Shown here: piece by piece, positions 1 to 19,709 of the stretch
How positions within the stretch are numbered: position 1 is the stretch's first letter
How the letters are laid out: every line of letters starts with the position of its first letter
NCBI GenBank assembly: GCA_000934665.2
Contig: JYFJ02001349.1
Coordinates: 62,001 to 82,213, forward strand
DNA length: 20,213 nt
DNA from: Catajapyx aquilonaris
Taxonomy: Eukaryota
Direction of reading: 5' to 3'
Notes under the pieces: generated by a model
Seen by the model: the letters and a program-made list of their open reading frames with translations, nothing else
Database searches by the model: none
Told to the model about the DNA's origin: nothing
Position numbers and translations under genes: made by a program

Positions 1-674
1 GTAGCGGCTTTGATGCCTGCTAACGACCGGCGAAAATATCATCATGACCCTATTGGTGGCCTGTTTATGAATAATAATGGACACATCCGATAGCTAGGGG
101 TTGGGCAGAAAAAAGCCGTAGTTTTCCCCTTTCTTGTGGCACGCACATCATTCACTCGCAAAACAGTGGGACTGCCGGCCTCAAAATTACCTCGCCGACC
201 TCAACTGGCTTCGAATTATATTCTCTCAATAGGGCAGCAGCACTGCAAACACATTACGCGTGAAAAATACTCTGCCACTCTCTGCTGCTGGGAACTTTGG
301 GGGTTTCCACCTATACTCCCTATGTTTCATTGGCATAGAAAATTCTTCACGCTGCGTTGGTTGCATACGTTACACAGACTCATCCAGGTTTTCCACTTGG
401 GAGGAGGCCACATTATCATATGCATTCATTTATCCCCATCCTACTACTCTTTCAAGCAGTGGAAAATACCCCCTATGCGCTCATTTTACATACTATTTCT
501 GTGTTGTGCTGCTCATACCTAAATGTTCAGTTTCAGCACTGTTATGTCTGGCACAAGCGAGCAAGAGTCATACACAATCATATTGCTCATTCATTCACCT
601 TGTTTTTGTTTAAAAAGCTGTCACGATAGTTATAACTTCATACAATTGGGATTCACAAAATCATTTTGCGATTA

Positions 675-1022
675 CAGGAAGCCCCCTGTCTATACGAAGG
701 GGGTTACGTTCCTGAAAATGTCCATAGGTCGGATTTGTACGTAACTCGGATCACTCAGGAACAGCGCATAATTACAGCGTAAAGATGCTGCTCCGCTTAC
801 GTCATGTGTGTTTGTTTATATATGCGCGGGAGTACGTAGTTTCCCAATTATTTATTAATTATACAGTATTATGTTGAACTTTGTATCGGTCAACATACGC
901 AGAAGTGATTGATAGTGGAGGGATAATAATTATAAATTATTATCCTTCTGGGGAGCCTTGGGAGCCCGTTCGTAAGTACGGATCGCCATAAGTCGGGTCC
1001 TTCGTAAACTGGGGACTACCTG
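675..1022. mobile_element. Tigger/pogo-type (Tc1/mariner superfamily) non-autonomous MITE, family A copy 1
   Basis: TA at 673-674 and 1023-1024. Imperfect TIRs CAGGAAGCCCCC.../...GGGGACTACCTG. Colinear, highly similar copy at 1959-2319. No coding capacity. Confidence 0.88.
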
Positions 1023-1101
1023 TACATACAACTCGCAAAACTATTGTGCGAATCAGCCTTTATTGAGTGCATTTTTCAAAGGAAAATAATATTATACGAG
1101 T

Positions 1102-1102
<1 letters not shown>

Positions 1103-1141
<39 letters not shown>
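1103..1141. repeat. (TAT)n microsatellite
   Basis: About 13 uninterrupted TAT units. Confidence 0.95.
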
Positions 1142-1322
1142 GGTGTAAAATAGGCCTGCAGGACACCAAAAAGTATAAGACAAGAGAGGAGGATCCGTTT
1201 TCAAACCTTCATCTTTAAGCCGTTTGCGTGACCTATGGTAAATCCATAGCAAATAGTAGAGCCCATCATGTTATTCATATAGGATTAATTACGGTACTTG
1301 TTATTAGTTGACCATCGATCAC

Positions 1323-1549
1323 CGAAGCAGGTTGGCAAGGTGGATAAGGCGTCCGACTGCTAATTGGGAGGTCATGTGTTCGAATCCCGGGGCCGACGAT
1401 CCTGAGCGTGGTTTTCTGTGGGTTTCCACGGTCTTCCTAGGATAATTCCGGGGTCACTTCCGTATAATAGGCCACAGCCGCTTCCTTCCTTCCCTATCCT
1501 TGGAGGTTGAAAGGCAATGCTGGGCCAACCTCCTTAATATCAATTATAA
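1323..1549 (+). mobile_element. tRNA-derived SINE (SINE-1), core resembling the invertebrate Inv-type domain
   Basis: A box-like TGGCAAGGTGG and B box GTTCGAATCC. Core GGTTTTCTGTGGGTTTCC...AGGCCACAGCCGCTTCCTTCC. Perfect 17-bp TSD AGTTGACCATCGATCAC at 1306-1322 and 1550-1566. 3' stem GGAGGTTG/CAACCTCC. The Inv-domain label is recalled, not aligned. Confidence 0.9.
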
Positions 1550-1958
1550 AGTTGACCATCGATCACGCAACTGGCCCTTAATGCTTCCTGAGGATCCAAT
1601 ACAGTCATGCTCATTATAAAAGCTAACGGTGCGCAAAAATAGCGGATTCCAACACCATCCAATTCCTTCATATCATACGTTTGTGCAAATATTTCAGCAT
1701 TGCCCAATATGGAACTCTAATTGTACGGTACTGCATTTAAAGTCTGCAAATTAATTAGATTGCTGTAAAAACCTTTTCAAGTGTCAAATTGAGTTTTAAA
1801 GTTACTGTATCCATGGTTTGTTCTCAATCTAAATGCAAGCTGAGGTGCAGTTCTAGTCTCCTAAGAGAGGACTAGGCAGATTGTTTTCACGTGAAAAGGG
1901 TGCAAAAGGGGATCTGGCCGATACAAATTGGCTGCCTTTGTTGCTGAGTAGGGTAGTA

Positions 1959-2319
1959 CAGGTAGTCCCCGGTCTACAAACTGGGTTACGTTCCTCAAAA
2001 AATGTCCATAAGTCGGATTTGTACGTTACTCGGATCCATGAGGAACAGCGCATAATATGTACAGCGTAAAGATGCTGCTCCAATGAACCGCTTACGTCAT
2101 GTGTGTGTGTTTACATGCGCGAAGAACGTGCTGCAGTTTACCAATTATACCGTATATTAATTATACGGTATTTATGTTAAACTTGGTATCAGTCAACGTA
2201 CTCGGAAGCGATTGAAATCGGAGGAATAATTATACATTTTACTTTCGGGGAGCCTTGGGAGCCCGTTCGTAAGTACGGATCGCCGTAAGTCGGGTCGTTC
2301 GTAAACCGGGGACTTCCTG
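1959..2319. mobile_element. Tigger/pogo-type MITE, family A copy 2
   Basis: TA at 1957-1958 and 2320-2321. TIRs CAGGTAGTCCCCGG.../...CCGGGGACTTCCTG. Same orientation as, and alignable to, 675-1022. Confidence 0.9.
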
Positions 2320-3040
2320 TACTTATCTTTTTCGCATCATCATCAACGTATCAGCACTACTAAAATGTAGTAGGTCAACATTCATTTTTCTTTTTAACTG
2401 CCAATTTGTCCACTACCATGGAATGACATCGAACTATACGTCAGTAGAAAAGTAAGGCAACCTAAAATGCATAAATCGGGCAAGTAATTGTGTCAGGTAA
2501 AATGAAATTTGACTATCGGCTAGTTCAGTGCAGCTTGGTGGCCTGGTAGACTGTCGATGCCAGCCTGAAGAGCCCACAGGAGTGTCGGCTTCCTGTTTCA
2601 TGCAATGTATCTCTCTTATCTGAGAGACTCGACATTCCATCTGATAGTAACGAACGTTTATCCAGGAAACCCTGGTGTCTGACACGCATCACTTCTGCAA
2701 CTCCCTCTTCATCTGCTGGCTGTCTCCATTATGTATGTACACAAAACGGGCCCTCATGGCGTTGATCAACTATACATGAATGCAACTAAGCAACGAGGTA
2801 AATAACTTCAGGATATGCCTTTGATTCATCCATTATAATGAACAAGTCACACGTACTGTATTAGATGTATTTGTACAGTGTCAGAGATATCGGACCCTTT
2901 AAGGCCCTGCGTCAGCTCATCATCCACTCCTATTTATTTAAGCAACAGAACTATATGTTCAATTTAATAGTTGAACTACACTGAAACTGTACTTTACTCA
3001 GTTTTATGCGATGAAGGTAAGTTAACTAAATTCGATTTGA

Positions 3041-3143
3041 ACAATTAATTATTACAATTAAATACAATTAATTATTAATTACAATTAATTATTACAATTA
3101 AATACAATTAATTATTAATTACAATTAATTATTACAATTAAAT
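3041..3143. repeat. AT-rich 40-bp minisatellite, about 2.6 copies
   Basis: Unit ACAATTAATTATTACAATTAAATACAATTAATTATTAATT repeats exactly at 3041 and 3081, and partially at 3121. Confidence 0.92.
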
Positions 3144-3327
3144 GGCTTTCTAACATAAAAAAGGTTGGGCAAGTTAATCCTTTAGAGATGAATCAAGATG
3201 TATTTGTATCTACAGAAGGGACTTTCATTTTGTTCTCTATGCAGGCTTGTTTAGGTCTAATAAATATAAGAAAAAATATTCTCTATGGGAAAGAGTTAAC
3301 TTACTGAACCCCATTGTAGAAAGTATT

Positions 3328-3616
3328 TTTTATATATATTATTTTTATTTATTTTACCTCGTGATAGGGGCGGAGCTCTCTTTTGGGGTGGCGTATCACC
3401 TTCAGTTTTCTTCGATTTTTCTGACTCTTACTTCACACATGGGTGGCGCCAAGGATAGGGACGGAAGGAAGCGGCTGTGGCCTATTTTTACCGAAACGAC
3501 CCCGGAATTGTCCTGGGGGGACTGTGGAAAACCACAGAAAACCACAGTCAGAGTCGCCGACCCCGGGATTCGAACCCAGGACCTCCCGATTAGCCACTAC
3601 ACCAACCTGCTTCGGT
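3328..3616 (-). mobile_element. tRNA-derived SINE (SINE-2), same head and core as SINE-1 but a different tail
   Basis: Minus strand reads ACCGAAGCAGGTTGGTGTAGTGG...GGTTCGAATCCCGGGG...AGGCCACAGCCGCTTCCTTCC, then an A-rich tail. TSD CCATTGTAGAAA(G/A)TATT at 3311-3327 and 3617-3633. Confidence 0.9.
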
Positions 3617-5970
3617 CCATTGTAGAAAATATTGGCGGCATTCACAGATCTTTCCTTTATCTTGGTGCATGTAAAATATGTACCAACGAAAATGCCCGTA
3701 GTGGCTAGCTATTTTTGGCATCACACTGCTGATAATTATTAGAGTTACTTTGGAACAGTTACTGTTGGGTGCTATAAAAAATATAGCTAGTATTGGGTTG
3801 AATGAATAAATTCATTATTACGAGTGACCAATTTTGACCGTCTTGTACTTGAGGTCAGTGGTTGGACCAAGTATTAGTTTAGATGCACGCATCAGTTCGA
3901 TTTTATTTTAGCAGCTAACATATTAAATAACCTACAAGTAACTGATTAAAAATAAGCACCTGGGTGTGAGAAACTGCTAACCACTTCGTATCAATCAGTA
4001 TTGCGGTGGACTCGCATTCCTGAAGTACAAGGACAAAACATATAAGTAAGACGATTAAACATGGAATGATACCGTACATTAAAAGTTACAAGAAGTGTAG
4101 GCAACTGAAACTTGTGCCAAGCTAAAACTTGAAGCTACATCGCCTTTAGCAATAAAGCCACAAAATTCCCTTTGTATACATAACAAGCAGCACGGCCTTT
4201 AATCTGTGACGTGTTCTGTCTGTACAGATGCCCCGGCGTCCACTCTGCATGCCCAGGATTATGAAGCCTGCTCAATAACGGACCATACCAGAAACAACAA
4301 GTAGAGAGGAAACTTGTATTGATTTCCGCTCAAACAGTGTGCAATACATAGGATTTATCAAGCCAATCTCCTCTGTGAAGTGCGGTGCAGCTCAGTGACT
4401 ATTGCATGTCAAACCGACTTTGATGTTGTAGGAAGTTGGCAGGTCTCGCCATTTCAAAGGGCATTGGTCAATGGTCGGGGGCCAGGGGGTAATCATTATA
4501 CTGAGGGGGGGAAGGGGTGTGGAAGGTGGGGGGTCAAGGAAAATCATTGTCCGGGGGCAGCGCCGAGAGGACGGGGGATCAGGAGGGTAGTGGGGGGGGG
4601 GAGGGAGAAGAGGTCCGCTCGTCTGGCTCTTTTTTCTTATTTTCTCTCTTTTTCGAAAAGAAAGGAGAGACAGAGAAGGAGAGTTGGGCCCCGTGGACTG
4701 ATTTTCTTGGCGGACCCCAACCAGCTCGGATTGGGAGAATTGATCTGGACAAGGATGGAGCACAAGCTGTGGATCTCTTCTCCCGTGGGAAATAACCCCG
4801 AATCATTCGGGTCCAATTTCCCAAAGCCAAATTTCCTTCGGCCTTTCCCTTATTAAAAAGAGCAGTCTCCCGCCAACTTGCTGCACATCTTTCCACGTGT
4901 TATACCGGATTTCCCCAGGCTTCGCCCTCTTTCATTTCATCGAGCATGCACTTGTTCATGAAAGCCAGCCTAATGTGCTGCGTTTCTACATCAACTCCTA
5001 ATCACATTACTGGCATTCCTACAATACTGTTTCAGCTTCGCCTCTATCTCGGGAATTATGCCGGTACTCATCTTGTCTTTAGGCCAGCCTAAGCATATTA
5101 GTATCGCACCTTGGGAATTTTATTTGCGGTATACCGTATATCAACAATGTCACCCATAACTTATACAGAAATTTTTAGTGTAAGCTTACAAATTACTTAC
5201 AGTAAATAACATGTAGTTATTTACCCGTGTGGCCACATTCAGTAGCCTAAATGTCAGAAAAAAATATTTACATCGGCGCATTATTGCCTGTTGTAATCAC
5301 TCACTTTAAGCCTAGCCTTCAACCTGATTTGGTTTCGACCAGAAAAATTGTGTCCAGCGAAGTGGAACCTGCATAATAAACGGTAGTCCATACAACATCG
5401 TTGACATACGTTATCTACTGTTAACTACTCGCAGACATGGAGCTAACATGGCAGTTCGGCGCAGCAAATCCGCCACAATAATTAATACACTACACTGCGC
5501 TACACTGACTACAGGATTTTAAACCACGCGTTTGTCATGGAGGACTGTGACACACTCTGTTTCGCTTTTTGCACCTATAGCGCAGTCGCATCGGATAGGT
5601 ATAAGATTCACTATCAGACCCGCAAAATTAGCTTTAACATCTGTTGGATATTTTAATGAGACATGAACATGTACGTTACATACGGTATTTGAAGGCAATT
5701 ATCAAATTCTACAAGCATCGGTTAACTTTGGTTAACTTCAGCCAAATTTCATCCCAAATGCACAGAACTTTGCCAAAGGAGCAATTTTGACGTGATGGAG
5801 CTGTAGCGGCACTGCGCTTCTGAAATAGTCATATGGTTGAGAGAGGCCATTAGAAAAGTACAGTACTGTACGTTTCGACTTCCCCACTCCCATCACACAC
5901 ACACACCACACACCGCTTGTCCGCTTTATTTAGTTATATCCGTACCTCCTGTCCCCCTTCTCTTCCCCAG

Positions 5971-6110
5971 TTCTGCCTGATTTCTACGAAAAACTGAGGT
6001 AACAAAATACCTGGATGCGAGCAAAGGAAAATGCGTTGACTAACCTCTTTTCCCGTTTCAGGGCGACGACTACGAGAAATGTAAACAGAAATTATTTTAT
6101 GCGTCTCTGA
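5971..6110 (+). other. Candidate 28-nt micro-exon (5971-5998), 63-nt intron and following exon (from 6062)
   Basis: Polypyrimidine tract ending CCCCAG at 5970. GAG|GTAACA donor. Branch point TGACTAAC plus CTCTTTTCCCGTTTCAG acceptor ending 6061. The only open spliced frame reads LPDFYEKLRATTTRNVNRNYFMRL*. No homology recognised. Confidence 0.4.
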
Positions 6111-6173
6111 ACTGCCAACAGAGCTTTTGACTGTCTACCAAAAAGGACGGATAAACCGAGCATTAATGTACTC

Positions 6174-6268
6174 TATCGCTCAAAAACATAGAGACGATTT
6201 GGCATTTGATTGAAGTGCAAGTTGCACTTAAGTCAAATGCCAAATCGTCTCTATGTTTTTGAGCGATA
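6174..6268. repeat. 95-bp near-perfect palindrome, probably a tiny MITE
   Basis: Two 47-bp inverted arms with 2 mismatches and a 1-nt spacer (TATCGCTCAAAAACATAGAGACG.../...CGTCTCTATGTTTTTGAGCGATA). Confidence 0.9.
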
Positions 6269-6441
6269 TATACGTCTGGTTCACAACTTTGTTTCTTGAG
6301 ATTAATGCTCAACGAGTGAATTAAAATTCCAAGTTATGGGATGTAAAATACATAGATGCCTATTTCCCTCTATAAATGACCAATATTGGGCCTCTGATTA
6401 GCTTCAATTAGCCCTTAGCATATCACCATAACACTATAGCC

Positions 6442-7002
6442 CTACACTATATGAGGCAGCATTCGCAAATTTTCCGAATACAGTAATTGTTTTGATCGAT
6501 ATGATGGACAGGCAATAAATATATAATAATTTCCATGCAGAATCGAATCATTTAATGCAGAAATACGCAGGCCTGTCGCTCTAAAATATAGGCCTATCCT
6601 CACAAAGGGGTAAGATAAGTCGAAGATTAGAGAACGTATAGCTACTGTAGCTGATAAGGAAACTAATAGCCCGATTTGTCTATCAAATGGGGGCCTCAAC
6701 GTGATGTTTCGTTCAAAAGCTTGGAGACTATAAAAAAGGCAATCCAATGGAGTATAGGCATGTAGTATAGCAGAGGGAGTGATTTGGATTCTGTCTTCTG
6801 CTAATAATATACCGTAGTGCAGGTGAGTCAAAATGAACTCTTTCAGCATGACGAGGATGGTTTCCAGCATGGCTTGACCACTTGACCACATAACATCGCT
6901 GTACGAGGATACCACTTGAACTGCATTAAGACTTGAGCGGAAACCTTTCCTCGTGGCCTGGATGAAAATCTTGCAGTGCCGAAAGTGTCGGATGCCCCTC
7001 AT
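6442..7002 (-). other. 186-codon ORF of unknown status in unique sequence
   Basis: Longest ORF in the window outside recognisable repeats. Preceded by a possible acceptor (CTGCTGTTTGCAG, about 7013). No domain recognised. Confidence 0.2.
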
Positions 7003-7426
7003 TTAGTGCGCACTGCAAACAGCAGGGCGCTTAAAAACACTGTAAGCTGTGTTTACGTTCCACTGTTGACCTTCTGAAACCGACGGCCCAGTCCACTCAT
7101 TCCTATTTCGCCGTGGGAACATTTTTGCCCCGGATTACGGTCATCAATGTTTGCAGCAATCATTAGCACAAGTATGATTACCAGCTTTAACAAATCAATA
7201 GATTTCCACATGCATGCATGCATCCTGCCTGGAATAATTAGCTTCCCTTCCACCCTCCTACCCCCTACTCAGACTATGACTCGACCTGATTGGGTCGCAA
7301 CCCTTTTGCGGCTACACATTCGAGGCTATCATATAACTCCCTCAGTGGGAGAAAGTGCATGTGTGCCACTCACATCTATTTGGAGTCAACTAGGTGTGCA
7401 AGGAAGGCTATTGGGGGGTTCGCCGT

Positions 7427-7494
7427 GGGGAGAGGGAGGAGAGGGAGGAGGGGGAGGGAGAGAGAGAGAGGGAGGGAGAGAGAGGGAGAGAGAG
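7427..7494. repeat. GA/GGA-rich polypurine simple repeat
   Basis: GGGAGAGGGAGGAGAGGGAGG...(GA)n tract. Confidence 0.9.
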
Positions 7495-7985
7495 TTGTGG
7501 ACTGCTGGGAATGGGGTTTCAAGTGTAATAGAGCTACTGCTGCATAGGTAGACTATCCGGTTACCGAGTGTCAACGTCAGGAAGGAGAGGAACTTCCGAA
7601 AGAGCCACGGTCAATGGTTCAAGGGAATTCCAATTGCCCAAGGTATGGTCAACTCTTCTCTGTACGACACGAGTAAATCAAATTCATGCCCTTTCGAATC
7701 TAAATAATTCAGCTAAACAAGGTGCCCAATAGAATTGACCCATTTCGTCTCAATTGTTGAACATGACTCATGAAAAGAAAAGTGTTTCTGCAGTAACACT
7801 CTTGTGGGGACAATAATTACTGTGATGTTTGGAAGCCTATGCAATCCAATGAAGTGATATATGGAGGGATACAACGAAAAGGAACAATTTGGTGTCTTTT
7901 ATAGGCACCTTTTCTTCGCTTCACATGCGAAACGGGACTAGTCCTACTGGCAGAAAATAACAAGCAATCTGAAATGGCATTTTAC

Positions 7986-8215
7986 AGAGCCTGGCAGAGC
8001 ACACAGGCAGGATTGTCGTGTGTCTGACTTGATATTCGGCGGAAATTAAACCTGTGTTCGCTGCTACGCATGAAAAATGCAAGTTTTGCTGCTGCCTCTC
8101 CTGGTGCAGATGGGAGTGGGTTTTCTGGAGAGGGGAGCTTTAATGTGCTCGATGTATGAGATAAAAGGAAACTCAATTCCAAATGAATTCTTCAAGAAAA
8201 TCTTCACGCACTGCT
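7986..8215 (-). pseudogene. Candidate exon of a decayed minus-strand gene or lncRNA (3' boundary uncertain)
   Basis: Acceptor TCTTTTAAACAG ends at 8216. Phase 1 is compatible with exon 10604-10460 and reads EQCVKIFLKNSFGIEFPFISYIEHIKAP... Removing the Chapaev insertion leaves an 87-nt intron. The donor (GTAAAA at 7985) is weak. Confidence 0.35.
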
Positions 8216-8523
8216 CTGTTTAAAAGATTTCTTTTTAATGTTATCTTTAAGAGTGACTTCATATATGATTAAAATAACACTGGCCAACAAAAAAAATGTT
8301 GTTGCATGTGATTTTTCAATTCATTCTGAGTATTTTTTTCAACGCTGATTTCAAATCTGAAATAGGTTTTCCTCTGCATGCTCTAGTTTTCATGCAATTT
8401 GAAACTTGTGACTTTTGCGAAAAAGGACAACCATTGCTATTTTCCACTAGGGATAGCTTGAGAATTAGGCAGCCTCAAATGTGTTCTCTTGCACAGATGG
8501 CAATGTTTATGGTGTGGTTCCAG

Positions 8524-9350
8524 TTGGTCACTGAGTATAATTTGCGAGAGGAGCATACAAGTATTGACATAAAAGTGGTCATTGACTTACTCCAATATCA
8601 TAAGCACAACTGGATCATTTGTGTGGACCTGAAAATGGGTAACTTCCTCCTCAATGAGAAAGGCGTCACAAAGTTTCCATGCTGTCCCTGCATGTGGGAC
8701 AGTCGAGCTTGAGAGAAACACTGGACCCAGAAGGAGTGGTCCATCGGTGAAACTCTAGAAGCAGGCATGCCAAACATTGTGAATGACCCAGTCGTCAGCG
8801 TTATTTTCCCCCCACTCCATATCAAGCTTGGCTTGATGAAACAGTTGTTCGTGAAGGCATTAAGTACTGATGGTGAAGGTCTTCAACACATACAGTAGTT
8901 TCTGCTTTTCCTGCTTTGTCTTTCGAGATGATCAAAGCAGATGTGTTCGAAGGATCTCAAATTCGTGCTCCTGTCCGTGATGAGGAATTTGTCAGGAAGA
9001 TGAATGACAAGGAGAAGGCAACGTAGCATGCTGTCTCTCGTGGCAGTTATACAGAAATTTCTCGGTAACAAAAAGGCACAAAATTACATGAGGTTCTCGT
9101 TACTAAAATGCTGTTGAATTTTCGCGATATTCGGTGCAATATGAGTGTCAAGCTGCAATTCCTGAATAGTCACCTTGAGAAATTCCCCGAAAACCTTGGG
9201 GCTGTTAGTGATGAGCAGGGAGAACGCTATCAAGGGAGATGGGACAAAATTACTATGATGGCAGACAACATACTGCTGGAGCATCAAACGAGATTTCCCT
9301 GAGAAGTCCACAAACGTCAGAGATACAAGCGCAAATTCTTGCCTGAATAT
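8524..9350 (+). pseudogene. Chapaev3-type transposase pseudogene (C-terminal portion only)
   Basis: Fragments in shifting frames: YHKHNWIICVDLKM..FLL, TKFPCCPCMWDSRA*EKHW, PPLHIKLGLMKQ.FVKAL, FPALSFEMIKADVFEGSQIR, FLGNKK, CNMSVKLQFLNSHLEKFPENLGAVSDEQGERYQGRW, MMAD. Contains stops, frameshifts and deletions. Confidence 0.88.
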
Positions 9351-9406
9351 GATCTATCTGAACTGTGCATTTCATCCTTATCAGTTGTTCTGAATCACCT
9401 ACCATC

Positions 9407-9735
9407 GGGGAAGGTGCGGTGGCCAAGATAGTAACGTCTCGGCTTGCTGTGCGAAAGGTCCCTGGTTCTAATCCCCGCCCGGGAGTTACCTGTCGCCTGC
9501 GTCAGTGGGTCTCTGGCCAGCGCCTTAGGAGGCGTCTTGGCAACTGGCCTCCTGCGGGACTGCACATGACCCTTTTCAGACATTGTACTTGCACCTGTGC
9601 CCCCTCCCAAATACCCCCATCCTTACCCTACTTCCCTAATTGTCCTTTCACGGAGTCCGAAGAAAAACAGAAAATTATTCAAAATGGTGGTAACCCTAAA
9701 AGGGCCTTGTCCCCTCCAATGGGGTAAACAAAAAA
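9407..9735 (+). mobile_element. tRNA-derived SINE (SINE-3) nested in the Chapaev element
   Basis: A box TGGCCAAGATAG and B box GGTTCTAATCC. Tail CCCTAAAAGGGCC...GGGGTAAAC(A)n. Degenerate 14-bp TSD AATCACCTACCATC (9393-9406) vs AATCACATTTCATC (9736-9749). Confidence 0.8.
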
Positions 9736-9947
9736 AATCACATTTCATCTTGATGTCTATAGACATCAAGATCATACGTGTATACACGTATATTATATTA
9801 CCGGTAATTTAAAGTAAAAAAGCGACACATTTTACTCCACACAAGTGATAAGTTATTTTTTTACTTTTTTCGAACTTTAATTCAAAGCCATATTGTGATG
9901 CACTTACGACTTTTTGTGAATGATTAAGCCTAATAATTTTAAGATCC

Positions 9948-10223
9948 TTATTTATTTTATTTTATTGGATACCCCGTGATAGGCCCCTTGGGCCTCTTAG
10001 GGGATCATCTTTTGAATACCCGACTTTAATCATTTGCCTGTAATGTGATGGATTTTGATTGCGGGAGGAAACGGGAGAACCCCGAGAAAACCCACGCGAA
10101 TACGGAGAGAACCCATCGAAACTCTATCCACATAAGTATCCTCCGTCCGACCCGGGGATCGAACTCGGGACCTTAGAGGTGGAAGGCTGCGGCGCTAACC
10201 ACTCCGCCACCGTGTCGCCCTCT
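9948..10223 (-). mobile_element. tRNA-derived SINE (SINE-4) with a V/Meta-like core, nested in the Chapaev element
   Basis: Minus strand reads GGGCGACACGGTGGCGGAGTGGTTAGCGCC...GAGTTCGATCCCCGG, core GCGTGGGTTTTCTCGGGGGTTCTCCCGTTTCCTCCC, then an (AATAA)n tail. TSD core TAATTTTAAGAT at 9934-9945 and 10224-10235. Confidence 0.88.
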
Positions 10224-10459
10224 TAATTTTAAGATTCTATAACCATAAATTCCTCAGAGAGATCATGTCATCATGAGACATGCGTCAAAATGTCACGAAA
10301 GGTATAAAAATTGTAGAAAATCTAGAGCTTGCTGAGAAAAACTAACATCGGATTTGAATTCAGCACACTCTAATTAAGTAAGAACAAGTGCTGGTATCAA
10401 TACAAAAAAAAAAGAAAAATGTTGTCCGGTGTAATCAATAACGGTGAGTACAGCCTTAC

Positions 10460-10604
10460 CTGCAAGAGGTTCAACTGAAATTCGTCACACAAACAAGACT
10501 TTACATTCCGATTCACCTGCCTCTATTTTTAGTGCATCTTTGAGGCCATTGCCTTGTATAATCTGATTCGTGACTTCATAAATAAGTTAAAGCCATTGAT
10601 AAAC
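10460..10604 (-). pseudogene. Candidate 145-nt exon of a decayed minus-strand gene or lncRNA
   Basis: Acceptor CTCTTTTCAG and donor CAG|GTAAGG. Phase-0 frame reads VYQWL*LIYEVTNQIIQGNGLKDALKIEAGESECKVLFV*RISVEPLA. Stops in all three frames. Confidence 0.5.
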
Positions 10605-10947
10605 CTGAAAAGAGTTTACAATGAAGCTCTTCTAATACTAAAACCTTGCAGGCAGCGAACAATTCAGGAAAAGAACGTCTTCATTTTCGAGAATCTTATG
10701 TTTTATTTGGGAGAACACTTAATAAGAATCTAAAACAACAAGGCATAAGAAATATTGAATACATTCCGCAATGACATCATATCTCACATTTGCCGATGGG
10801 AAAAGCAGTTCCAGTAGGTATTAAATCTAATATTTACAGAACTGCTCTAGGACTGATAAATCCGTGACACGCAATGCGTTCTCTCGGGAATTGTTGATCA
10901 TTTCTTATGCAAATGCAAATTATTGTTTTTTTTTCTGCCTCCTAGTT

Positions 10948-11270
10948 GTTTTTTAGATACCCCGCGCTAGGGCCTTTTGGCTCTCTCAGGGGGGTGGAAA
11001 TACCACCATCGTTTTTGGATATAATATGATATTATTTAATTGTTCCAAAGGTGAGTAGGAGGGGATGTGCAGAGTGCAAGTGAAATGTCGTTGCTTGGTC
11101 ATTTTGCGAACTCCCCCGGGTGGATTAGTCTAGCGGAAATCTCCACCCGAGACGAAGCCAGAGATGGCCCAACTCTGCAGGAGATGAAGGGGGGAACCCC
11201 GGGTTGGGTTCGAACCCGGGACCTTAACATCCGTGGGCGCGTGCGTTACCGCGGCACCACTCCGCCTCCC
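10948..11270 (-). mobile_element. tRNA-derived SINE (SINE-5)
   Basis: Minus strand reads GGGAGGCGGAGTGGTGCCGCGGTAACGC...GGTTCGAACCC. Tail CCCCCTGAGAGAGCCAAAAGGCCCTAGCGCGGGGTATCT(A)n. TSD TCTGCCT(C/T)CTAGTT at 10934-10947 and 11271-11284. Confidence 0.88.
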
Positions 11271-11644
11271 TCTGCCTTCTAGTTTTAAAAGGCGGAATTC
11301 GAAAGTGAGATTTTACCGTTTTGTAAGTTAGTCAGTATATTAAATCCTACAAAGTTTGTCCAGTTATGTTACTTTCAGTATCATCGATCATGCCCTAACC
11401 CCCCTTCAATGAAACGGGCATGGTTTGCAGTAAATAAATTGACTGGTGTGGTGGGAAAAGGTGATAACCCACACAAGTGTATTTTTTTCATCAGAAAGGA
11501 TTTAAGTTTACACTCTCTTCACAACTAGTCAAAAATGACACCTTTCCGCCTTCTTCTTGCGATAAAAAACTACACACTGATGATAGGGAACCAAGTCGCA
11601 TATAACTATGTAACGTAGATTTAAAGAGGCTTTCTAACGATATA

Positions 11645-12215
11645 CAGGGTGTTTCAGAGTCACGGGTCAAGCGCGCGCGAGGGGGTGGGGAAAAATCGTA
11701 GGTGGCGACAACCCCGGTCGGTTTTATAAAACAATTAGAAATACGGCAGTAATCAATTTATTTATTACGGCAGTACGGCGTGACGTCACATCCTTCCTGT
11801 ATTCGAATTGACCGGCGCGGACTGGCAGGCGTACAGTGGGTTGAACCTGGTTGAGAGGCTTTTTAGCATTGCGGGTTGCACTGAAATAGGCGCTCTCCTG
11901 CTATACCGGTGGGGTACTGTACAAAGTAGTGTGTGTACAGTACCCTACTGGTATTATAAGCATGAGAGCGCCTTTTTCAGTGCAACCCGCAAGGCTAAAA
12001 GCCGTTAAACCAGGTTCAACACATGCTGCACTAACCAGTCCGCCCCGGTCAATTCGAATACAGAAAGGATGTGACGCCACGCCGTACGGCCGTAATAAAT
12101 AAATTGATTACTGCCGTATTTCTAATTGTTTTATAAAACCGACCGGAGTAGTCTCCACCTACGATTTTTCCCCACCCCCTCGCCCGCGCTTGACCTGTGA
12201 CTCTGATACACCCTG
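11645..12215. mobile_element. Fold-back (fully palindromic) Tc1/mariner-type MITE
   Basis: TA on both sides. Termini CAGGGTGTTTCAGAGTCAC.../...GTGACTCTGATACACCCTG. Inverted arms of about 280 bp pair up to a short centre near 11922-11935. Confidence 0.92.
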
Positions 12216-13391
12216 TAACTATAACATTAATTTTTGGATCAATTTCCTGGGAGTGTTTTCGAGTCAAATACAGGGGCCTATGTTAAATAAACGGATAGTA
12301 GTAGATCAAAACCAGCATTTCCTATGTAACGGGGCAACATGATTTTTTTCTGACACTTCCCGGACGCCAAAAATCTTGTCTAGTCTAGTCAAATGTAACA
12401 TACTCGGTAACATACGTGTATTATTTCACGTTTGATATAGAAATCTTAATTCTTAAGGCATGAGGCAGGAAGGTTTCTTCTACTGCTGGTGAATAACGCT
12501 CATGATTTTTTTTAAATATTACGATCATCGAATTTATGCAGTCTCTCGCCGAGTCGTGTAGCTCTCATTCTCCTTTGAGTACAACAATTTCAGCCGATTT
12601 CAGCATGTCCCGTTTTCTTCACTCAAATAGGCTTCCATTGCATTGAAAAATATTACAGATAAATACAGTAAATTCAGTTGGTTTAATTTTGCTCAATAAT
12701 ATTACTCCCTAAACAATATATTTCCAGTTATTTGTAGCCCTATGATGATAAATAATAAAACAGGACTTACTATAATAGGTTCCAAATTGCTGTAGCTGTT
12801 TGTAGTGGGGAGCGAGGATAAAAGACATCTCTCTTTCCCAAAATGAATAATTACAGTGCTGATTATTTTCTATAAGCTTAACAATTATTTGTTCAGGTGA
12901 TCATAAAATATAAACAAAAATAGTAGGTGCGTTTGAATTGGTTTGGCAGTAAAAATAATATTCATTTCTTCAATGCTTCAAGACAATAATTCAGTACTGT
13001 GGGTAAATCACTCCAAAATCTTGGCAGCAAAAATGAATGTTCTCCTCCAGGGCGCTTATGGTGATACTTATCATTCCCAACCGTCGGACCTTCCACTCAC
13101 AAATACAGTGAAAGTTAAAAAAATTATGCAGATAGCGGCAATTGGCAGTTGGCCCCTTCGCACAAAGACATAAGTTTCGCAACATTTAGCCGTTGCATCT
13201 TTGTTGGTGTACGGCAAGTTCTTCTTGTCGAAGACTGCTTTTCCCGTGCGAATCTTAAATTATTCTCATTGATCATGAGTCAAGTTTACTTCTCATTTCA
13301 CAGAAAACAATGACTGCAGTATGGCTAAAAAATGCCGTACCTCTAACTTGATGACGCTCAATTATTGACTTTTTCGAGTAGATGGCCTTAC

Positions 13392-14084
13392 CTCCTCAAA
13401 TAAATTGCTCAAATTATTATTCAAATTAGAAGGTTCTGCTGTAGTGACAGAACTGGATGAAACAGGCTCAATTTTCATATATCGGAGGTGTATGACTCAT
13501 AGAAGTGTGTTTGTATTCAAGGCATAAAATGGAGCACATAACATTTCATTGATGTTCACATGCTCAATATTTCTAAGGGAAGTATAACTGTGCAAAGGAC
13601 AATGTCTCCAAATCATAGCAATTGGATAGCGTTAGTAAAGGAAGAGTTTATATTGGATAGCTGGACTTCGTCAATAGAAAATAAGGAACGGACCGAATCA
13701 CAATACGTTTGCTCGTCAAATGGACAGGATGATTTGCTGAAACGTAACGCTGACCGAAACATGTAGGGTTTAAGTCCAGGTATAATAACTGTGGTTGGAA
13801 GACTGCTAAGTTCGCGTGGTCCTCCTGGATTGTATTGTCAATATGATTGTGTTTGAATTAGGGACCCATAAGGGATTCCTCTAATTTCCTCTAATGGGGT
13901 AGCTTCGAAAGAGTTTCTGATCAACAAAATTTTGGGAACTTGGACCACCCAGTTGGATCCTTCTCACCTTAGTTTGCAAATCGTAAATGTGATTTTCTGG
14001 TCAATCTGTCACGCGGTAAATGTTAGAGGCTTAGAAGATATTTTAACAGGCATTTGACAATTTTGACCTCAAAAGGTCGTCTCC
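13392..14084 (-). pseudogene. Candidate 693-nt exon of a decayed minus-strand gene or lncRNA
   Basis: Acceptor TTTTATTTGGAAACAG and donor GAG|GTAAGG. Long low-stop stretches switch frame (...GPRELSSLPTTVIIPGLKPYMFRSALRF...; ...YMKIEPVSSSSVTTAEPSNLNNNLSNLFEE). No recognised homology. Confidence 0.45.
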
Positions 14085-16217
14085 CTGTTTCCAAATAAAA
14101 TATACAGTATAATACAGAATATTGCACAGTAGAAATATCAGCATCTGGAATAACTTAATAGTAGCAACAAAAACAACAAAGTGTCAAGATCAATATATTT
14201 CGGCGTAACATGCCCTCACCTAGACCTGTAATCTTCCTTTGTTACATACGGTACATATTATGCTTTTTCGCACTTGGTGCAATTGCACGTACAGCTACAG
14301 CCGATCAATACGAATAATATAGACCTATATACTGTACAGTTACAGTGTATCTTTTCTTTGTAGGCGTGCATCAGTAAATCATGCTATGCACTGAGTAGTC
14401 CCTCTGAAGTTATTATTAGGTTTTTAGGTAACTATTATTACACACAGTCTACTTTCGATTTTTATTGGGGCACTACGGTAGTGATATTCTCTTATGAAAG
14501 GATGATAGTCGTAAAAGATTTATTTTTCCGTAATACTGTACCCGTACTGTACTCAACTTTGCAGGCAATCTCTTAGGCGGGAAGGTGTAGAATGAAACAC
14601 TTCGTTATTAATTTCCCACGAACCTTCGCTCTCCATGCTTAATTTTGCTTTCCTTTTGATGTTGTTCAGTGCTACATTGTTGAAGTCAATGTATGCAGAA
14701 GCTGGAGCAAGATGAGTGTCCAAGCTACGGCCCAGTTTGGCCGTATCGCTAATAAATTTATGGTGTCTTTGAATTTGATATGAACCTTGGACACAGCGGA
14801 AAGTTGTCTATTGCAGAAATTGTGGACCCGGCAGCATGAAAGGATTTCCTATGGATTTTTTAATGATATAGCCGAACCTGTTTTACGCCTATCTTGGTAT
14901 GGAAAACCCTGTGTATATACAGTACAGCGGAATTAGTACTGCATTAGAACTCACAAATCTGCCGAACCAAGAACGGAGAGAAGCTTGGGATGAAGCATCG
15001 CAAGGGTTTAAGGAACATCGACCTATCAGGTAAAAAGGCGAAGGCGAGTCCCACAAATTCGTCGTTAGAAAGCTTACAGCCTGCGGATTTGTGTTGAAAG
15101 GAGGACCATGACAGAACGAGGAGATACAATTTCGTGAAAAAATGATGCTTTCTCAATGGCCCGTCCTGCATTACATCCGGGTGAAATTAGTCGTTTCTCA
15201 AGGGTTGTTTATGTGCTTGTATGGTATGTCTCCCCATCTCTCAAACACAGCCAGATGTGCAAGATAGGCCACATTTCGTTAGTCACTCCTACATGCAGAT
15301 AAGATGACATGGAGCTGAGAAGGCAAGTTATACGAGTACTAGTTTCAGGAATTAATAATTTCCTGTGGAAGCGATAGGAAATGAAGGCATAAAATGCTGA
15401 GTCTTGATGCAGGCGTATATGGGGAGCTTCTTTTGCAACAGGAGTTCTTGCGAGGAAAAAGAGGCATCTCCATCCGCTTCAGGCTAAAAGGAAAGCACGC
15501 AAAATGCGGATATTCTATCCCGGGCAGAGAACAAACGGAGGGGGAAAAAGGAAGCAGACGAGGATTACGGTAGATAGGAGTCGCCTGCAGGTACGGATAT
15601 AATAAACTTGGCCCCTTTGACTGCCAACAGATTAATCGAGTTGGTGAGTACACACTGCCTGCATCCCGTCAAGGATTGATTGCATCTGATGAATAGAGCC
15701 TACACTACATAGTAATGGGCCTGTTCGTCGTTGCTAGGTCACGACTTCTTGGAAAGAAGGTATAGGTATACAAAGTATATCGAGTAATTCGTACGCAAAG
15801 TATCTCGTTGTACGGTAAGCCAAGAAAGTTTCGGCCAAATGTATCCAGGAGCACCCGCAAACTCGGCAATGTGAAAGTATCGTTTTTCCTGCTGACCTTT
15901 TCCTTGCACGAGTGCTGGCGATTGTATAGCGCCAGACCCTATGTTCGATACTATCTCAGTTCTCCATATTCACATGTGGTGCTCATGTTGGATGTGAATA
16001 TTAGTTATGCCTAAACCCACTGTTAAATTTAAATGTCAGAAGTGAGGGAAAACATTACTTGACAATATTTCCCCGAATTAAAAAAAAGTAGATTTCAATG
16101 TAATTATGGAAATTCAGGAGTTAAGGTAATAACTTATGAGTCTAGTGCGAGAAATCAGTTCGGGGGAAAACCATTGGATATTCATTAAGTTCTTGACCAA
16201 AGTAGGTCTACGGTATA

Positions 16218-16560
16218 CAGTATAACCCCGGTTATCCGTCACCAACGGGACCGGGGCATGGTCGGATAACAGAAAAGGGCGGATAATCCGAGAAGTAAAA
16301 AACTTTAATGAAACACAACAAAAACATATAAAGACAAGAAATAATGTACAATATTATGGTTTCCTAAGAAATAGTGAAGTATTTATCTTTTACTGGCACT
16401 CTACTGTACTGTATTTACTATTTAACTAAGGCAGAACAAACAAATGCGTAGAATATTACAGTAAGTTATTTCAGGAGAAAACAGAATTATTTCCGGAGCG
16501 GGACGGTCGGATAAACCGAGGAATCGGATAATCCAAGGTCGGATAATCGGGGTTCTACTG
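16218..16560. mobile_element. Tigger/pogo-type MITE, family C
   Basis: TA on both sides. TIRs CAGTATAACCCCGGTTATCCG.../...CGGATAATCGGGGTTCTACTG. Repeated subterminal CGGATAA motifs. Confidence 0.9.
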
Positions 16561-16925
16561 TACTTGATACACTATAGGTACGGTATCATAATTTCAATTT
16601 GCTATTTGACAACAAAATTTGTACTGTACGAGTTTTACTATGTATCACATTAATGGCCTTTTCAAAATTATATTTAAAAACATGAAATTAGAAAATAACA
16701 AAAAATCTAAACATCGCTGCAACACCTCTGAGTCCAAACACACTGTAATCCTGTGGTTTTTTTAGTGGTGCCTTGTGGCACTTGTGGCTTTTGTGTGGTC
16801 AGTGAACCACATTTTCCTTGCGTTTTCACTTATTTTCATGAAATTCGGTATATCCGTAGTACCCATGGAAAAATCCTGGTAAAACTGTTTCGCCAGATAA
16901 TAATTATAATTGGTTGTCTACTTAC

Positions 16926-16946
16926 ATGAACCGATAATGTCGCCAT
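16926..16946 (-). other. Candidate first-exon end: AAAATGGCG start/YY1-like motif followed by a consensus donor
   Basis: Minus strand reads AAAAA ATG GCG ACA TTA TCG GTT CAT|GTAAGT (MATLSVH, phase 0). Confidence 0.35.
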
Positions 16947-17545
16947 TTTTTGCAGGACCTGATTTGGATCCCGAAATGACCCTGTAAATCCTGCTGGAAA
17001 TAGGAAAGCGACACATGATTTTAAAATATACGGTATATTTCGATTTTGAATAGTTCTCAAAAATCAACCTCAATATTTATTTCCAAACTCAAGGTTTTGA
17101 AGCTGTTTAATTGGGACACTTTAAATTGTTGTTCATTAGAATTAAAAATGGTATTTAACACCCCCAGAAAGGGTGGACCGACATACAGTTTGGCGACACA
17201 AAAGAGAGGTAAATAACAACATTCCAAAATATTTCTAAGCCTTGAGAATGCTAAATACGAGTATTTTACCCGGCAGGTATTCACGCAATTCGATTGATAT
17301 TTTCTAACGCACTTCTCTTCCTTCTGAAGTAGCCTACCTGTAGTTTTGAAGTTATACATTAATTTGAGTTAGATTTATGAGACTTAAAAGGATGGTCATC
17401 GCACCCTAATATTAGCAGCTAATGCTTCTGATAACCACCAAAAGCAAAAATTAAAAACTACTGCAATAACTTCTTAGAGCCGAAGAATCGCTGTCTCAAT
17501 GGGGCATTTCAGCTGGCACACCACGTATTTTAAAATGTCTGAAAA

Positions 17546-18369
17546 CAAGGGGGTAATCACTCGACTGAAAAGTGTACACTGGAGTACCAAATTCAAGGAA
17601 TACCAGGGAGTAATAAAGAGTGGGGTGTGGGTCATTTCACCGACACCCACCCGGCCGACAAGCCAGTTCACCGACAGACATTTCACCGACATACCCATTC
17701 CACCGACAAGCCATTTCTGCATTTCACCGACAAGAAGGTTCCCCGACAGGGCGTTTCACCGACAGTCATTTGATCGACAAATTTACCCACACAATTCCGA
17801 TATGAAAACCATCCAGTCACTGGAGAGACGGGGTCCAGATCGCACCTCATTTTCGCAGCGCCCCTTATGGAAGGAACCACCTGACAGATGTATCCCATTT
17901 CTATCAAATATAAACGGAGCATACATTTCCAATTACATTGCATGAATGAAATACTTGTAGTCAGACACCCGGACAACAACTGATGCTTACCGGGGAAGCT
18001 GTAGGTGACGACCTGATTCGCTAAAAGATATTCTCGTGGGAAACATGAAAATGAGGTGTGATCTGGACCCCGTCTCTCCAGTGACTGGATGGTTTTCATA
18101 TCGGAATTGTGTGGGTAAATTTGTCGATCAAATGACTGTCGGTGAAACGCCCTGTCGGGGAACTCCTTGTCGGTGAAATGGCTTGTCGGTGGAATGAGTA
18201 TGTCGGTGAAATGGCTTGTCGGTGAAATGGCCTGTCGGTGGAATGGGTATGTCGGTGAAATGTCTGTCGGTGAAATGACCCGCTCCGTAAAGAGTGAGGT
18301 ACCTGAGGAGTACCAGGGAGTACCACTCGCAGTTGTATACACCGGAGTACCGAAGTGATTAGCCCCTTG
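17546..18369. mobile_element. Small hAT-like MITE (about 150 bp of own sequence) interrupted by a MULE
   Basis: TIRs CAAGGGGGTAATCACT/AGTGATTAGCCCCTTG. 8-bp TSD TCTGAAAA (17538-17545) vs TCTGAAAT (18370-18377). Internal repeated GGAGTACC motif on both sides of the nested element. Confidence 0.75.
17623..18287. mobile_element. Non-autonomous Mutator-like element (MULE) with long, tandem-repeat-containing TIRs
   Basis: Perfect 9-bp TSD TAAAGAGTG at 17614-17622 and 18288-18296. Inverted arms of about 230-240 bp (17623-17854 and 18047-18287) whose outer parts are arrays of CATTTCACCGACA-type units. Confidence 0.88.
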
Positions 18370-19709
18370 TCTGAAATTGCCCCTTATAACGGTAACCGCC
18401 ACCCGATCGGCAAAGGACGGACCTCGAGGAGCTTCTTTCCATGCCAATTTTTGAGTGTTTGGGTTTTTCCATATAAGGACAAACACTCAGACAACAGACC
18501 GGAATCTCACTGTGAAGTCCGTTGTGATGTCATACAATCCGAGTGACCTGAGAAGCAGGGCTAAGCACAGTAAATGAAATGTGGTAATGCAACGTAACAT
18601 GCGACTGCAAACTGTCTCCAGCAGGCATGATGGGAGCCATGTTGAATTATTACTGGCAGCCACCAAATCACGAGAAATTGGCTGAGTAACGACTAACCAG
18701 TAACTAATAACGTATAATATTAACGACTCCTGCGTAGTAGCAACAGCAGTAATAACGGTTCCTCACTAATAACGCATAAGCCCATCACTCTCATGAAGGT
18801 GGAAAATTATCCATAAAAGGGATGGGAGGGAGGGTAGGAGTGGAGAGGAATACTCTCGCCACGTTATTTCTACTGCAGGATCCGCGAATATGATTTACAC
18901 CGACATAAAAGCAGCTACTGATCATAGAACCAATTAATAACAAGCTAATATGTTGTAGTGTTGCACATTGATGTGCAATACTTTGGTCTGCCCGGTCATA
19001 GTCACTCACTCTATATGCCCGAATATACTGCCCACAAATCATCACCGTCACAGCCAAATTGACTGCTGCTTAAAGTGCTGCGTAATACCGGGTGATAAAT
19101 CTAGTCTTCCACAGGGAAAAGGGTGATATTATTTTTCACCGCTCATTTCTCATTCAAAATTATGTTAACATGAACTACATTATTTGTTCATGCAGAGGAA
19201 ATGGGATGCTCTTGTAATGCCTAATATTTAGAAAACGCTGTTAGTATTAGAATATTGCCACCGGTTTTTGCTAACCGGTTACATCGCTGCGGACAGGGGA
19301 ATCTGCATTATACTGTTCATGCCGCCCCTATTTGTATTCGGCTCTTCCGTGATGCTTCTGCTTTCCAAACTATGCTAATGCACTGGTGAACATGCATATT
19401 TTACATCTGGGCTTGCTCTCTTATTCTTTGCTACTTGTACAGGAAGTTAGCTGAGCTAACTACCTGTACAGCAGCTCATACAGTAGCCTACACACTGCAT
19501 GTTCCCGTAGAAATGTTTATTAAAAGTACGTGTTTCTAATGTCAGCTCAAATCCGTGTGGGTGGAAATCTTGCGGACCATTAAGCAAACAAAGGTGAGGA
19601 GTTGTACTATACAGTGTGTTTTTAATTAAATCTGTAAAGTGTTTATCATCAGCAGTAAGTTATTACTTTAGAACAGACGCTTCTAGCAGTTATCATATTA
19701 CAATATTAC

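What the first reader, a model, noticed from the sequence alone, without database searches (positions are those of the whole stretch)
862..19485. Window-wide excess of TA-CNG-TA heptamers that look like a fossil record of transposon excisions
Seen: a manual count finds at least 30 copies of four heptamers. TACAGTA occurs at e.g. 5198, 5859, 6479, 8891, 12664, 14103, 14918, 19479. TACTGTA occurs at 1803, 2854, 5864, 6643, 14330, 14534, 14545, 16402, 16407, 16622. TACGGTA occurs at 1290, 1724, 2164, 5681, 14247, 14474, 15811, 16209, 16579, 17029. TACCGTA occurs at 2148, 4070, 5132, 6810. A rough expectation at about 40% GC is only 6-7. Known: Tc1/mariner excision (e.g. Sleeping Beauty) leaves TA-CAG-TA or TA-CTG-TA. 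Inference: insertion-excision cycles may be a major source of 5-bp insertions in this genome, at more than one per kb here.
Basis: partly seen in the sequence, partly recalled or inferred. Interest (0 to 1): 0.72.

Follow-up and report, generated by a model that had tools for sequence, protein, structure and literature searches.

The report
Transposon excision scars at TA sites
Four seven-letter words are about ten times too common in this stretch of animal DNA, and most of the surplus is likely made of 5-letter scars left where cut-and-paste jumping genes cut themselves out, a known kind of mutation that this genome seems to carry roughly a hundred thousand times.

Summary
Observation confirmed: 39 copies against 3.9 in shuffles. 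In 160 sampled 10-kb stretches the words are also enriched (3.3x and 2.0-2.4x), but at 0.57/kb, not the window's 1.93/kb. Nine of the 39 are ends or inherited parts of MITEs. Two are derived 5-bp insertions at TA (8891; 2148, which has a local inverted template). The other 28 could not be polarised. Elsewhere, repeat copies carry derived CAG, CTG, CGG, CCG, GCC, AGT, GGCC and CCGG inserts at TA, sometimes stacked. Candidate parents exist: a TA|CAGTA pogo element with a 508-codon transposase frame, and a TA|CCG-ended MITE family (418 ends). Flanks match the elements' purine-TA-pyrimidine target preference. There is no 5-bp peak in the insertion spectrum, and only 2-3 of 23 five-base insertions are of the four types, so 'major source' and 'more than one per kb' are overstated for the genome. 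The mechanism is the textbook Tc1/mariner/pogo footprint. The scan reported the same phenomenon before on other pieces of this genome and in a placozoan.

The parts
862..19485 (.). 39 TA-CNG-TA heptamers (12 CAG, 12 CTG, 11 CGG, 4 CCG)
8891..8897 (+). Derived 5-bp insertion (CAGTA, 8893-8897) at a TA inside a decayed repeat; one homolog is empty there, another carries four stacked units (GCCTA, CCGTA, TA, GCCTA) at the same place
   Evidence: window, L251, L252
2148..2154 (+). Derived 5-bp insertion (CCGTA) in a MITE copy; it forms a perfect 10-bp inverted repeat with the site at 2164, so local templating is not excluded
   Evidence: (21 of 30 alignments show a 5-bp gap)
16462..16468 (+). Derived 5-bp insertion (AGTTA) making TAAGTTA, directly after the inherited TACAGTA at 16457; shared with one other copy (L222)
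673..1024 (+). TA-flanked MITE with CAGG ends (family A, copy 1); the motif at 862 is family consensus
1957..2321 (+). Family A MITE, copy 2; the motif at 2164 is an A-to-G change of the consensus TACAGTA, not an insertion
11643..12217 (+). TA-flanked fold-back MITE with CAGGG ends (family E); motifs at 11915 and 11936 belong to its shared central spacer
16216..16562 (+). TA-flanked MITE with CAGT ends (family B); 16216 and 16556 are TA plus terminus, 16402, 16407 and 16457 are consensus
5859..5870 (+). Stacked pair TA-CAG-TA-CTG-TA in single-copy DNA; not polarised
14534..14551 (+). Stack TA-CTG-TA-CCCG-TA-CTG-TA in single-copy DNA; not polarised
16209..16215 (+). TACGGTA directly abutting the left TA of the family B MITE; not polarised
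19479..19490 (+). Stacked pair TA-CAG-TA-GCC-TA; not polarised
1290..17035 (.). Remaining stand-alone heptamers with no usable homolog (1290, 1724, 1803, 2854, 4070, 5132, 5198, 5681, 6479, 6643, 6810, 12664, 14103, 14247, 14330, 14474, 14918, 15566, 15811, 16579, 16622, 17029)
   Evidence: 1290, 1724 and 1803 were not searched separately, only covered by the sample BLAST

Best explanation
The four heptamers are strongly over-represented, and most of the surplus is likely made of excision footprints of TA-targeting cut-and-paste transposons of the Tc1/mariner/pogo group. Inferred from Sleeping Beauty (SB) biochemistry: an element inserts at TA and duplicates it; on leaving, the transposase cuts three bases inside one strand at each end; the two 3' overhangs pair around a central mismatch and end-joining fixes TA-CAG-TA or TA-CTG-TA for CAG-ended elements, and TA-CCG-TA or TA-CGG-TA for CCG-ended ones. 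Shown here: the enrichment, derived insertions of these units at TA in repeat copies, reuse of one TA by different units, candidate parents with matching ends, matching flank preference, and depletion in long open frames. Not shown: any one site both filled and excised, the cut positions of these transposases, or the origin of 28 of the 39 window sites. About a quarter of the window's sites (9 of 39) are element ends or inherited MITE sequence and about 4-6 are chance.
For: Enrichment 3.3x and 2.0-2.4x, top two of 32 control pairs. Polarised insertions: window 8891 with an empty homolog and a homolog carrying stacked units; 2 exact of 23 five-base insertions against a null of 0.07-0.18% per event, and 4 of 11 six-base insertions TA-NNNN-TA against 1.7-1.9%. 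Genome-wide anchored searches: CGG, GTC, GGCC and AGT units at one SINE TA, 2 of its 3 five-base insertions being TA-NNN-TA; CAG and GGCC at one MITE GTAC site, 2 of 4 matches; CCGG; CAG; none of 10 at a CTAA site with roughly 3,000 empty copies. Parents: L292 has TA|CAGTA ends, 2,078 bp with both TAs, and a 508-codon frame with CENP-B_N, HTH_Tnp_Tc5 and DDE_1; CAG is the commonest start of TA-flanked inverted repeats, 72 of 604 (set enriched for families A and B); TACCGTATTACYTC occurs 418 times against 9 in the control, often in inward-facing pairs, with differing outer flanks. Flanks: purine before TA at 82-85% of CAG-element ends, 70% before and 65% pyrimidine after TACAGTA against 53% background, 43 of 60 flank positions at the window's 30 non-MITE sites against 54%, p=0.0035. 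Only 55 of 916 sample sites look like element ends and 20 like shared internal sequence. Stacks 53 against 22 expected, 46 of 53 with non-identical units. In stop-free frames of 300 codons or more: 2.8 against 7.4 CWG and 0 against 1.67 CSG per 1000 TA. SB's commonest footprints are TACAGTA and TACTGTA, repaired mainly by NHEJ (10.1101/659086, passages).
Against: No 5-bp peak in the insertion spectrum (7 of 117 insertions were 5 bp, 2 footprint-like). 14 of 23 five-base insertions are unrelated and 4 are duplications. The rate in aligned repeats (3 five-base events plus 2 longer ones holding one of the four words in 91 kb) is several-fold below the genome surplus of about 0.35/kb, though those copies are TA-poor SINEs or best-scoring hits. 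Both exact events have a local template (2148 inverted, 10 bp; L003 direct, 7 bp). Four anchored searches gave no clean case of the four words, and one search was dominated by tail duplications (56 matches, 2 footprint-like). No transposase was found for the CCG family (252 bp between L303 and L304 unread). No parent was found for the GGC/GCC or AGT/ACT units. The open-frame control is confounded by stop-codon avoidance. Why this window is 3.4-fold denser is unexplained; CpG content correlates only weakly with CSG density (rho 0.17).
Confidence: 0.78

Rival explanations
1. The surplus is mostly the surviving ends and inherited internal sequence of CAGTA- and CCGTA-ended MITEs, many decayed beyond recognition, with few true excision scars.
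For: Accounts for 9 of 39 window sites. Many families start with CAGTA and one with CCGTA. The clustering test misses rare families.
Against: Only 75 of 916 sample sites have a recognisable shared neighbour sequence. Both flanks, not only the outer one, show the target preference. It cannot explain polarised insertions.
Confidence: 0.1
2. The inserts are locally templated repair products (template switching, polymerase-theta-type insertions, quasi-palindrome correction) or slippage, not transposon ends.
For: 2148 forms a perfect 10-bp inverted repeat with 2164; L003 has a 7-bp direct template. One AGT insert mirrors its neighbour (C4446). Tandem identical units such as 16402/16407 could be slippage.
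Against: A locally templated null gives the exact words in only 0.18% of 5-bp insertions. Seven of the nine footprint-like 5-6 bp events had no template within 30 bases by the script (one of them, L006, has a near-match by eye). 46 of 53 stacks have different units. It does not predict that the top words match the ends of resident elements.
Confidence: 0.08
3. The words are kept by selection, for example as quasi-palindromic binding sites of a dimeric protein.
For: They are seven-base quasi-palindromes and are depleted from long open frames.
Against: They arise as whole 5-bp insertions inside dead repeats; one-mismatch neighbours show the surplus expected from neutral decay; median O/E of other quasi-palindromes is 1.02.
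Confidence: 0.04

Closest known systems
Canonical Sleeping Beauty (Tc1/mariner) footprints TACAGTA and TACTGTA (10.1101/659086, passages; PMC8151067, passages)
   Same: Same words, TA duplication, three bases from the element end, net 5-bp insertion; shorter SB forms (TACATA, TATGTA, TACGTA, TAGTA) also appear as polarised inserts.
   Different: Natural fossil record rather than an assay; the candidate parents here are pogo/Tigger-type (DDE_1); further units (CCG/CGG, GGC/GCC, AGT/ACT, GGCC, CCGG, TCGA) come with it.
Stowaway footprints and repeated reuse of one TA in Triticeae beta-amylase intron 4 (PMC1925063, passages)
   Same: Several distinct footprints at one TA and re-insertion next to an older footprint, as at window 8891 / L251.
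   Different: One plant locus polarised on a phylogeny; here a genome-wide word surplus in an animal without an outgroup.
Genome-wide excision survey of Asian and African rice (PMC4423477, passages)
   Same: Concludes that DNA-transposon excision is a notable source of small variation.
   Different: There only 8 of 94 excisions were clean and most caused deletions or filler; here only the stereotyped clean scars are visible, so excisions may be undercounted.
Passer, an active pogo element (PMC9976928, passages)
   Same: pogo-group element leaving short footprints.
   Different: Reported as 0-4 bp; the footprint sequences are in a figure I could not see, so a CAG-type 3-base footprint for pogo is not confirmed from that paper.

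Membership tests
Tc1/mariner/pogo excision footprint | Derived insertion of a short unit plus a duplicated TA relative to an empty site | tested here: met
   Window 8891 and 2148; other loci. Shown for 2 of 39 window sites only.
Tc1/mariner/pogo excision footprint | Unit equals the terminal bases of a TA-flanked inverted-repeat element in the same genome | tested here: met
   CAG ends, CCG ends. Not met for the additional GGC/GCC and AGT/ACT units.
Tc1/mariner/pogo excision footprint | A matching DDE transposase exists | tested here: inconclusive
   Met for CAG (L292); none found for the CCG family in six loci.
Tc1/mariner/pogo excision footprint | Scar sites share the elements' target preference on both sides | tested here: met
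   Purine before and pyrimidine after; none at a CTAA site.
Tc1/mariner/pogo excision footprint | Same locus seen filled with the element and, in another allele, with the scar | not testable with these tools
   Only four runs of one sample, as contigs; no relatives held.
Tc1/mariner/pogo excision footprint | Transposase cuts three bases inside the non-transferred strand | not testable with these tools
   Established for SB; inferred for these families.
   27/23/11 insertions at 4/5/6 bp; 2 exact and 1 near of 23.
MITE terminus or inherited MITE sequence | Word shared by family copies at the end or inside | tested here: met
   9 of 39 window sites; 75 of 916 sample sites.

The most novel reading that the evidence does not exclude
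The TA-flanked word spectrum of this genome is a readable ledger of past transposon excision that follows one rule for joining two 3-base overhangs. Ends whose first and third bases pair give 5-bp scars (CAG/CTG, CCG/CGG, GGC/GCC, AGT/ACT); ends whose last two bases are self-complementary give 6-bp palindromic scars (CCGG, GGCC, TCGA). Scars ending in G-TA create better targets and stack. About 100,000 intact scars, several per surviving element, would give a direct genome-wide excision rate per family and point to GGC- and AGT/ACT-ended families that have otherwise vanished.
Probability: 0.3. Interest if true: 0.65.

Novelty: new member of a known kind. Interest (0 to 1): 0.4.

Why it matters
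Excision is the hard-to-measure half of DNA-transposon dynamics, because it normally needs outgroups or population data. If stereotyped scars can be counted from one assembly and assigned to end types, excision load, target preference and rough age become measurable in any genome, and a small but distinct class of frameshifting insertions gets an explanation. The mechanism itself is textbook, and the share of 5-bp insertions it explains in repeats is modest (2-5 of 23, depending on which units are counted), so the impact is moderate.

Tried and rejected
Read data: four runs of one sample exist only as contigs; none of the 12 indels shown (36 more were hidden) was a 5-bp change at a motif, which says nothing either way. 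Homolog searches for window 12300-16205, 3630-6160, 2335-3040 and 6275-7400 found nothing covering a motif; the repeat next to 16622 starts beyond the motif. A 1.5-kb repeat fetched as an old substrate proved to be a C2H2 zinc-finger gene array and was left out of the insertion counts (loci L191-L220), as were duplicates of the window (L001, L007, L221). All-versus-all BLAST polarisation was underpowered. De novo clustering of TA-flanked termini was noisy and its output was cut. A candidate GGC-ended family (372 matches) is internal sequence of a longer inverted repeat. TGCTGCA inserts seen twice in family A are not counted as scars; the word is not enriched (O/E 1.02). CpG decay of CCG scars into CWG words can explain at most about 50 of 520 surplus sites, judged from TACCATA. 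No host gene was identified: 22 window ORFs gave no Pfam hit above cut-off. Ten literature searches listed no genome-wide survey of such words in an animal; the library lacks most subscription papers and I opened no supplements.
Full report
Observation. The window holds 39 copies of the four words (12, 12, 11, 4). Base composition predicts 6.4 and an order-2 model 6.5; 300 dinucleotide shuffles give mean 3.9 and maximum 9. The window lies in a 286-Mb assembly (G000:C579). It is non-coding as far as tested (22 ORFs without a Pfam hit above cut-off) and rich in SINE-like and inverted-repeat elements. The repeat content suggests an animal; I did not determine the taxon.

Genome background. I sampled 160 stretches of 10 kb from different contigs. 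After masking microsatellites (1.587 Mb), TACAGTA/TACTGTA occurs 750 times against 227-228 expected and TACCGTA/TACGGTA 168 times against 69-85. They are the top two of 32 TA-NNN-TA pairs and of 128 quasi-palindromic heptamers. The next words are TAGCCTA/TAGGCTA (2.1x) and TAACTTA/TAAGTTA (1.6x); among eight-base words TAGGCCTA (8.9x), TACCGGTA (6.0x) and TATCGATA (3.1x) stand out (order 3). Mean density is 0.57/kb, so the window (1.93/kb) sits at the extreme tail; the densest sampled 10 kb has 20 sites and the window halves have 17 and 22. The surplus is 520-548 CWG and 87-104 CSG sites; 55 of 916 sites look like element ends and 20 like shared internal sequence. That leaves about 0.35/kb, or roughly 100,000 sites if extrapolated. 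One-mismatch neighbours of CWG show a surplus of 228-341, which implies about 7-9% decay since formation (my inference), similar to the 9% divergence of the repeat copies.

The 39 window sites. Nine are not scars at the level of this copy: 862 is consensus of MITE family A and 2164 an A-to-G change of it; 11915 and 11936 are shared spacer of family E; 16216 and 16556 are TA plus terminus of family B, and 16402, 16407 and 16457 its consensus. The inherited ones may be older scars in founder copies; that was not testable. Two are derived insertions. At 8891 the window has CAGTA after a TA, one homolog is empty and the other carries GCCTA, CCGTA, TA and GCCTA stacked at the same place. At 2148 CCGTA is inserted, but it makes a perfect 10-bp inverted repeat with 2164, so a templated origin is possible. 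A further derived unit, AGTTA, lies at 16464-16468. The other 28 have no usable homolog (1290, 1724, 1803 and 19479 were not searched separately). Across the 30 non-MITE sites, 43 of 60 flank positions follow purine-TA-pyrimidine against 54% background (p=0.0035).

Insertion spectrum. In 19 repeat families, 91,103 aligned bases, distinct insertions of length 1-7 numbered 157, 97, 56, 27, 23, 11, 15, and deletions 120, 75, 18, 18, 16, 12, 14. There is no 5-bp peak. Of the 23 five-base insertions, 2 make one of the four words exactly, 1 with one mismatch, 2 make TAAGTTA or TAGCCTA, 4 are duplications and 14 are unrelated (one of these is a mutated copy of the TAAGTTA event). Random or locally templated nulls give the exact words in 0.07% and 0.18% of cases. 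Four of 11 six-base insertions are TA-NNNN-TA against 1.7-1.9%. These copies are biased towards best-scoring hits and TA-poor SINEs.

Anchored genome-wide searches at single TA sites (141 matches in ten searches). At a SINE GATAC site, 31 matches included one each of CGG, GTC, GGCC and TA-AGT units and eight TA duplications; 2 of 3 five-base insertions were TA-NNN-TA, on roughly 900 empty copies (5 in the sample). At a family A GTAC site, 2 of 4 matches were CAG and GGCC units and 2 were unrelated sequence. Single cases of CCGG (otherwise tail duplications), CAG (the latter with an adjacent template), CCG and CCA in diverged copies, GGGC, a degraded AGT and CGGG were seen. At a CTAA site with roughly 3,000 empty copies, none of 10 insertions was a scar.

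Candidate parents. PF03184 has 54 matches, many in long open frames. Of 8 loci examined, L292 and L293 have TA|CAGTA termini; L292 spans 2,078 bp with a 508-codon frame holding CENP-B_N, HTH_Tnp_Tc5 and DDE_1. A three-copy cluster starting TA|CCGTATTAC led to 418 exact matches against 9 in the control, many in inward-facing pairs 0.5-3.3 kb apart, with unrelated outer flanks; no transposase was seen in six loci. TA|TCG and TA|CGAG families also exist, matching the surplus of TATCGATA, TACGAGTA and TACGTA. I found no GGC or AGT/ACT parent. CAG-element ends have a purine before TA in 82-85% of cases; TACAGTA has 70% purine before and 65% pyrimidine after, against 53%.

Other signatures. Directly stacked units number 53 against 22 expected (40 against 23 when matched for the G-TA context), and 46 of 53 have different units. 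In stop-free frames of 300 codons or more the words fall to about chance level (6 CWG and 0 CSG per 2,139 TA), though such frames also avoid stop codons.

Mechanism. SB excision leaves 3-base overhangs that are joined mainly by NHEJ into TACAGTA or TACTGTA (10.1101/659086, passages; PMC8151067, passages). Applying this to the resident CAG and CCG ends gives the four words. My extension, an inference not tested biochemically, is that ends whose last two bases are self-complementary can also join through a 2-base overlap, giving CCGG, GGCC and TCGA; both predicted forms are enriched for CCG and GGC, and TCGA for the TCG families. With 134 recognisable CAG ends in the unbiased sample (a lower bound that may include some internal sites) and about 460-490 surplus CWG sites that are not ends, scars may outnumber surviving elements several-fold; this ratio is an upper estimate. 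Local templating and decayed ends are real minor contributors.

Known and new. Footprints, reuse of one TA (PMC1925063, passages) and excision as a source of variation (PMC4423477, passages) are known. Ten searches listed no genome-wide word-level survey in an animal, which is weak evidence of absence. The scan's own notes describe the same phenomenon on other pieces of this genome and in a placozoan; I read them after forming my view and they are not independent support.

Noticed in passing
window 19438-19468: A 31-bp TA-flanked hairpin whose ends match family A termini (CAGG...CCTG); looks like a two-ends-only remnant, 10 bases before a stacked scar pair.
   Followed up: no
window 6174-6268: TA-flanked fold-back element with TCG ends, member of a family; candidate parent type for TATCGATA.
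   Followed up: partly
window 17614-18296: Fold-back element with 16-bp internal repeats, flanked by a 9-bp direct repeat at 17614-17622 and 18288-18296 and skipped in other contigs; a 9-bp duplication suggests a Mutator-like element (recalled, not tested).
   Followed up: partly
window 8270-9360: Decayed transposase-like repeat (label recalled; no Pfam hit) with many short internally deleted relatives and several small insertions besides 8891.
   Followed up: partly
window 1321-1503 and 3449-3616; 9407-9737; 9950-10229; 10949-11273: Copies of four tRNA-like SINE families, two in inverted orientation.
   Followed up: partly
window 3041-3143: Perfect 40-bp AT-rich tandem repeat, 2.6 copies.
   Followed up: no
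L086:7548-9038 and L191-L220: Clustered multi-copy repeat; the L086 copy encodes a C2H2 zinc-finger array in a 480-codon open frame.
   Followed up: partly
L050 and L172, MITE_J position 190: Same TA carries a CGAG unit in one copy and a GCC unit in another: a second reused site.
   Followed up: partly
L080, L182, L091, L088, L157 and the window: Stretches rich in CCG/CGG words tend also to be rich in AGT/ACT words, but the overall correlation is not significant (rho 0.13, p=0.1).
   Followed up: partly
G000, PF03184 hits: Many of the 54 pogo-type transposase matches lie in open frames of 400-660 codons without stops; some may be active or domesticated.
   Followed up: partly
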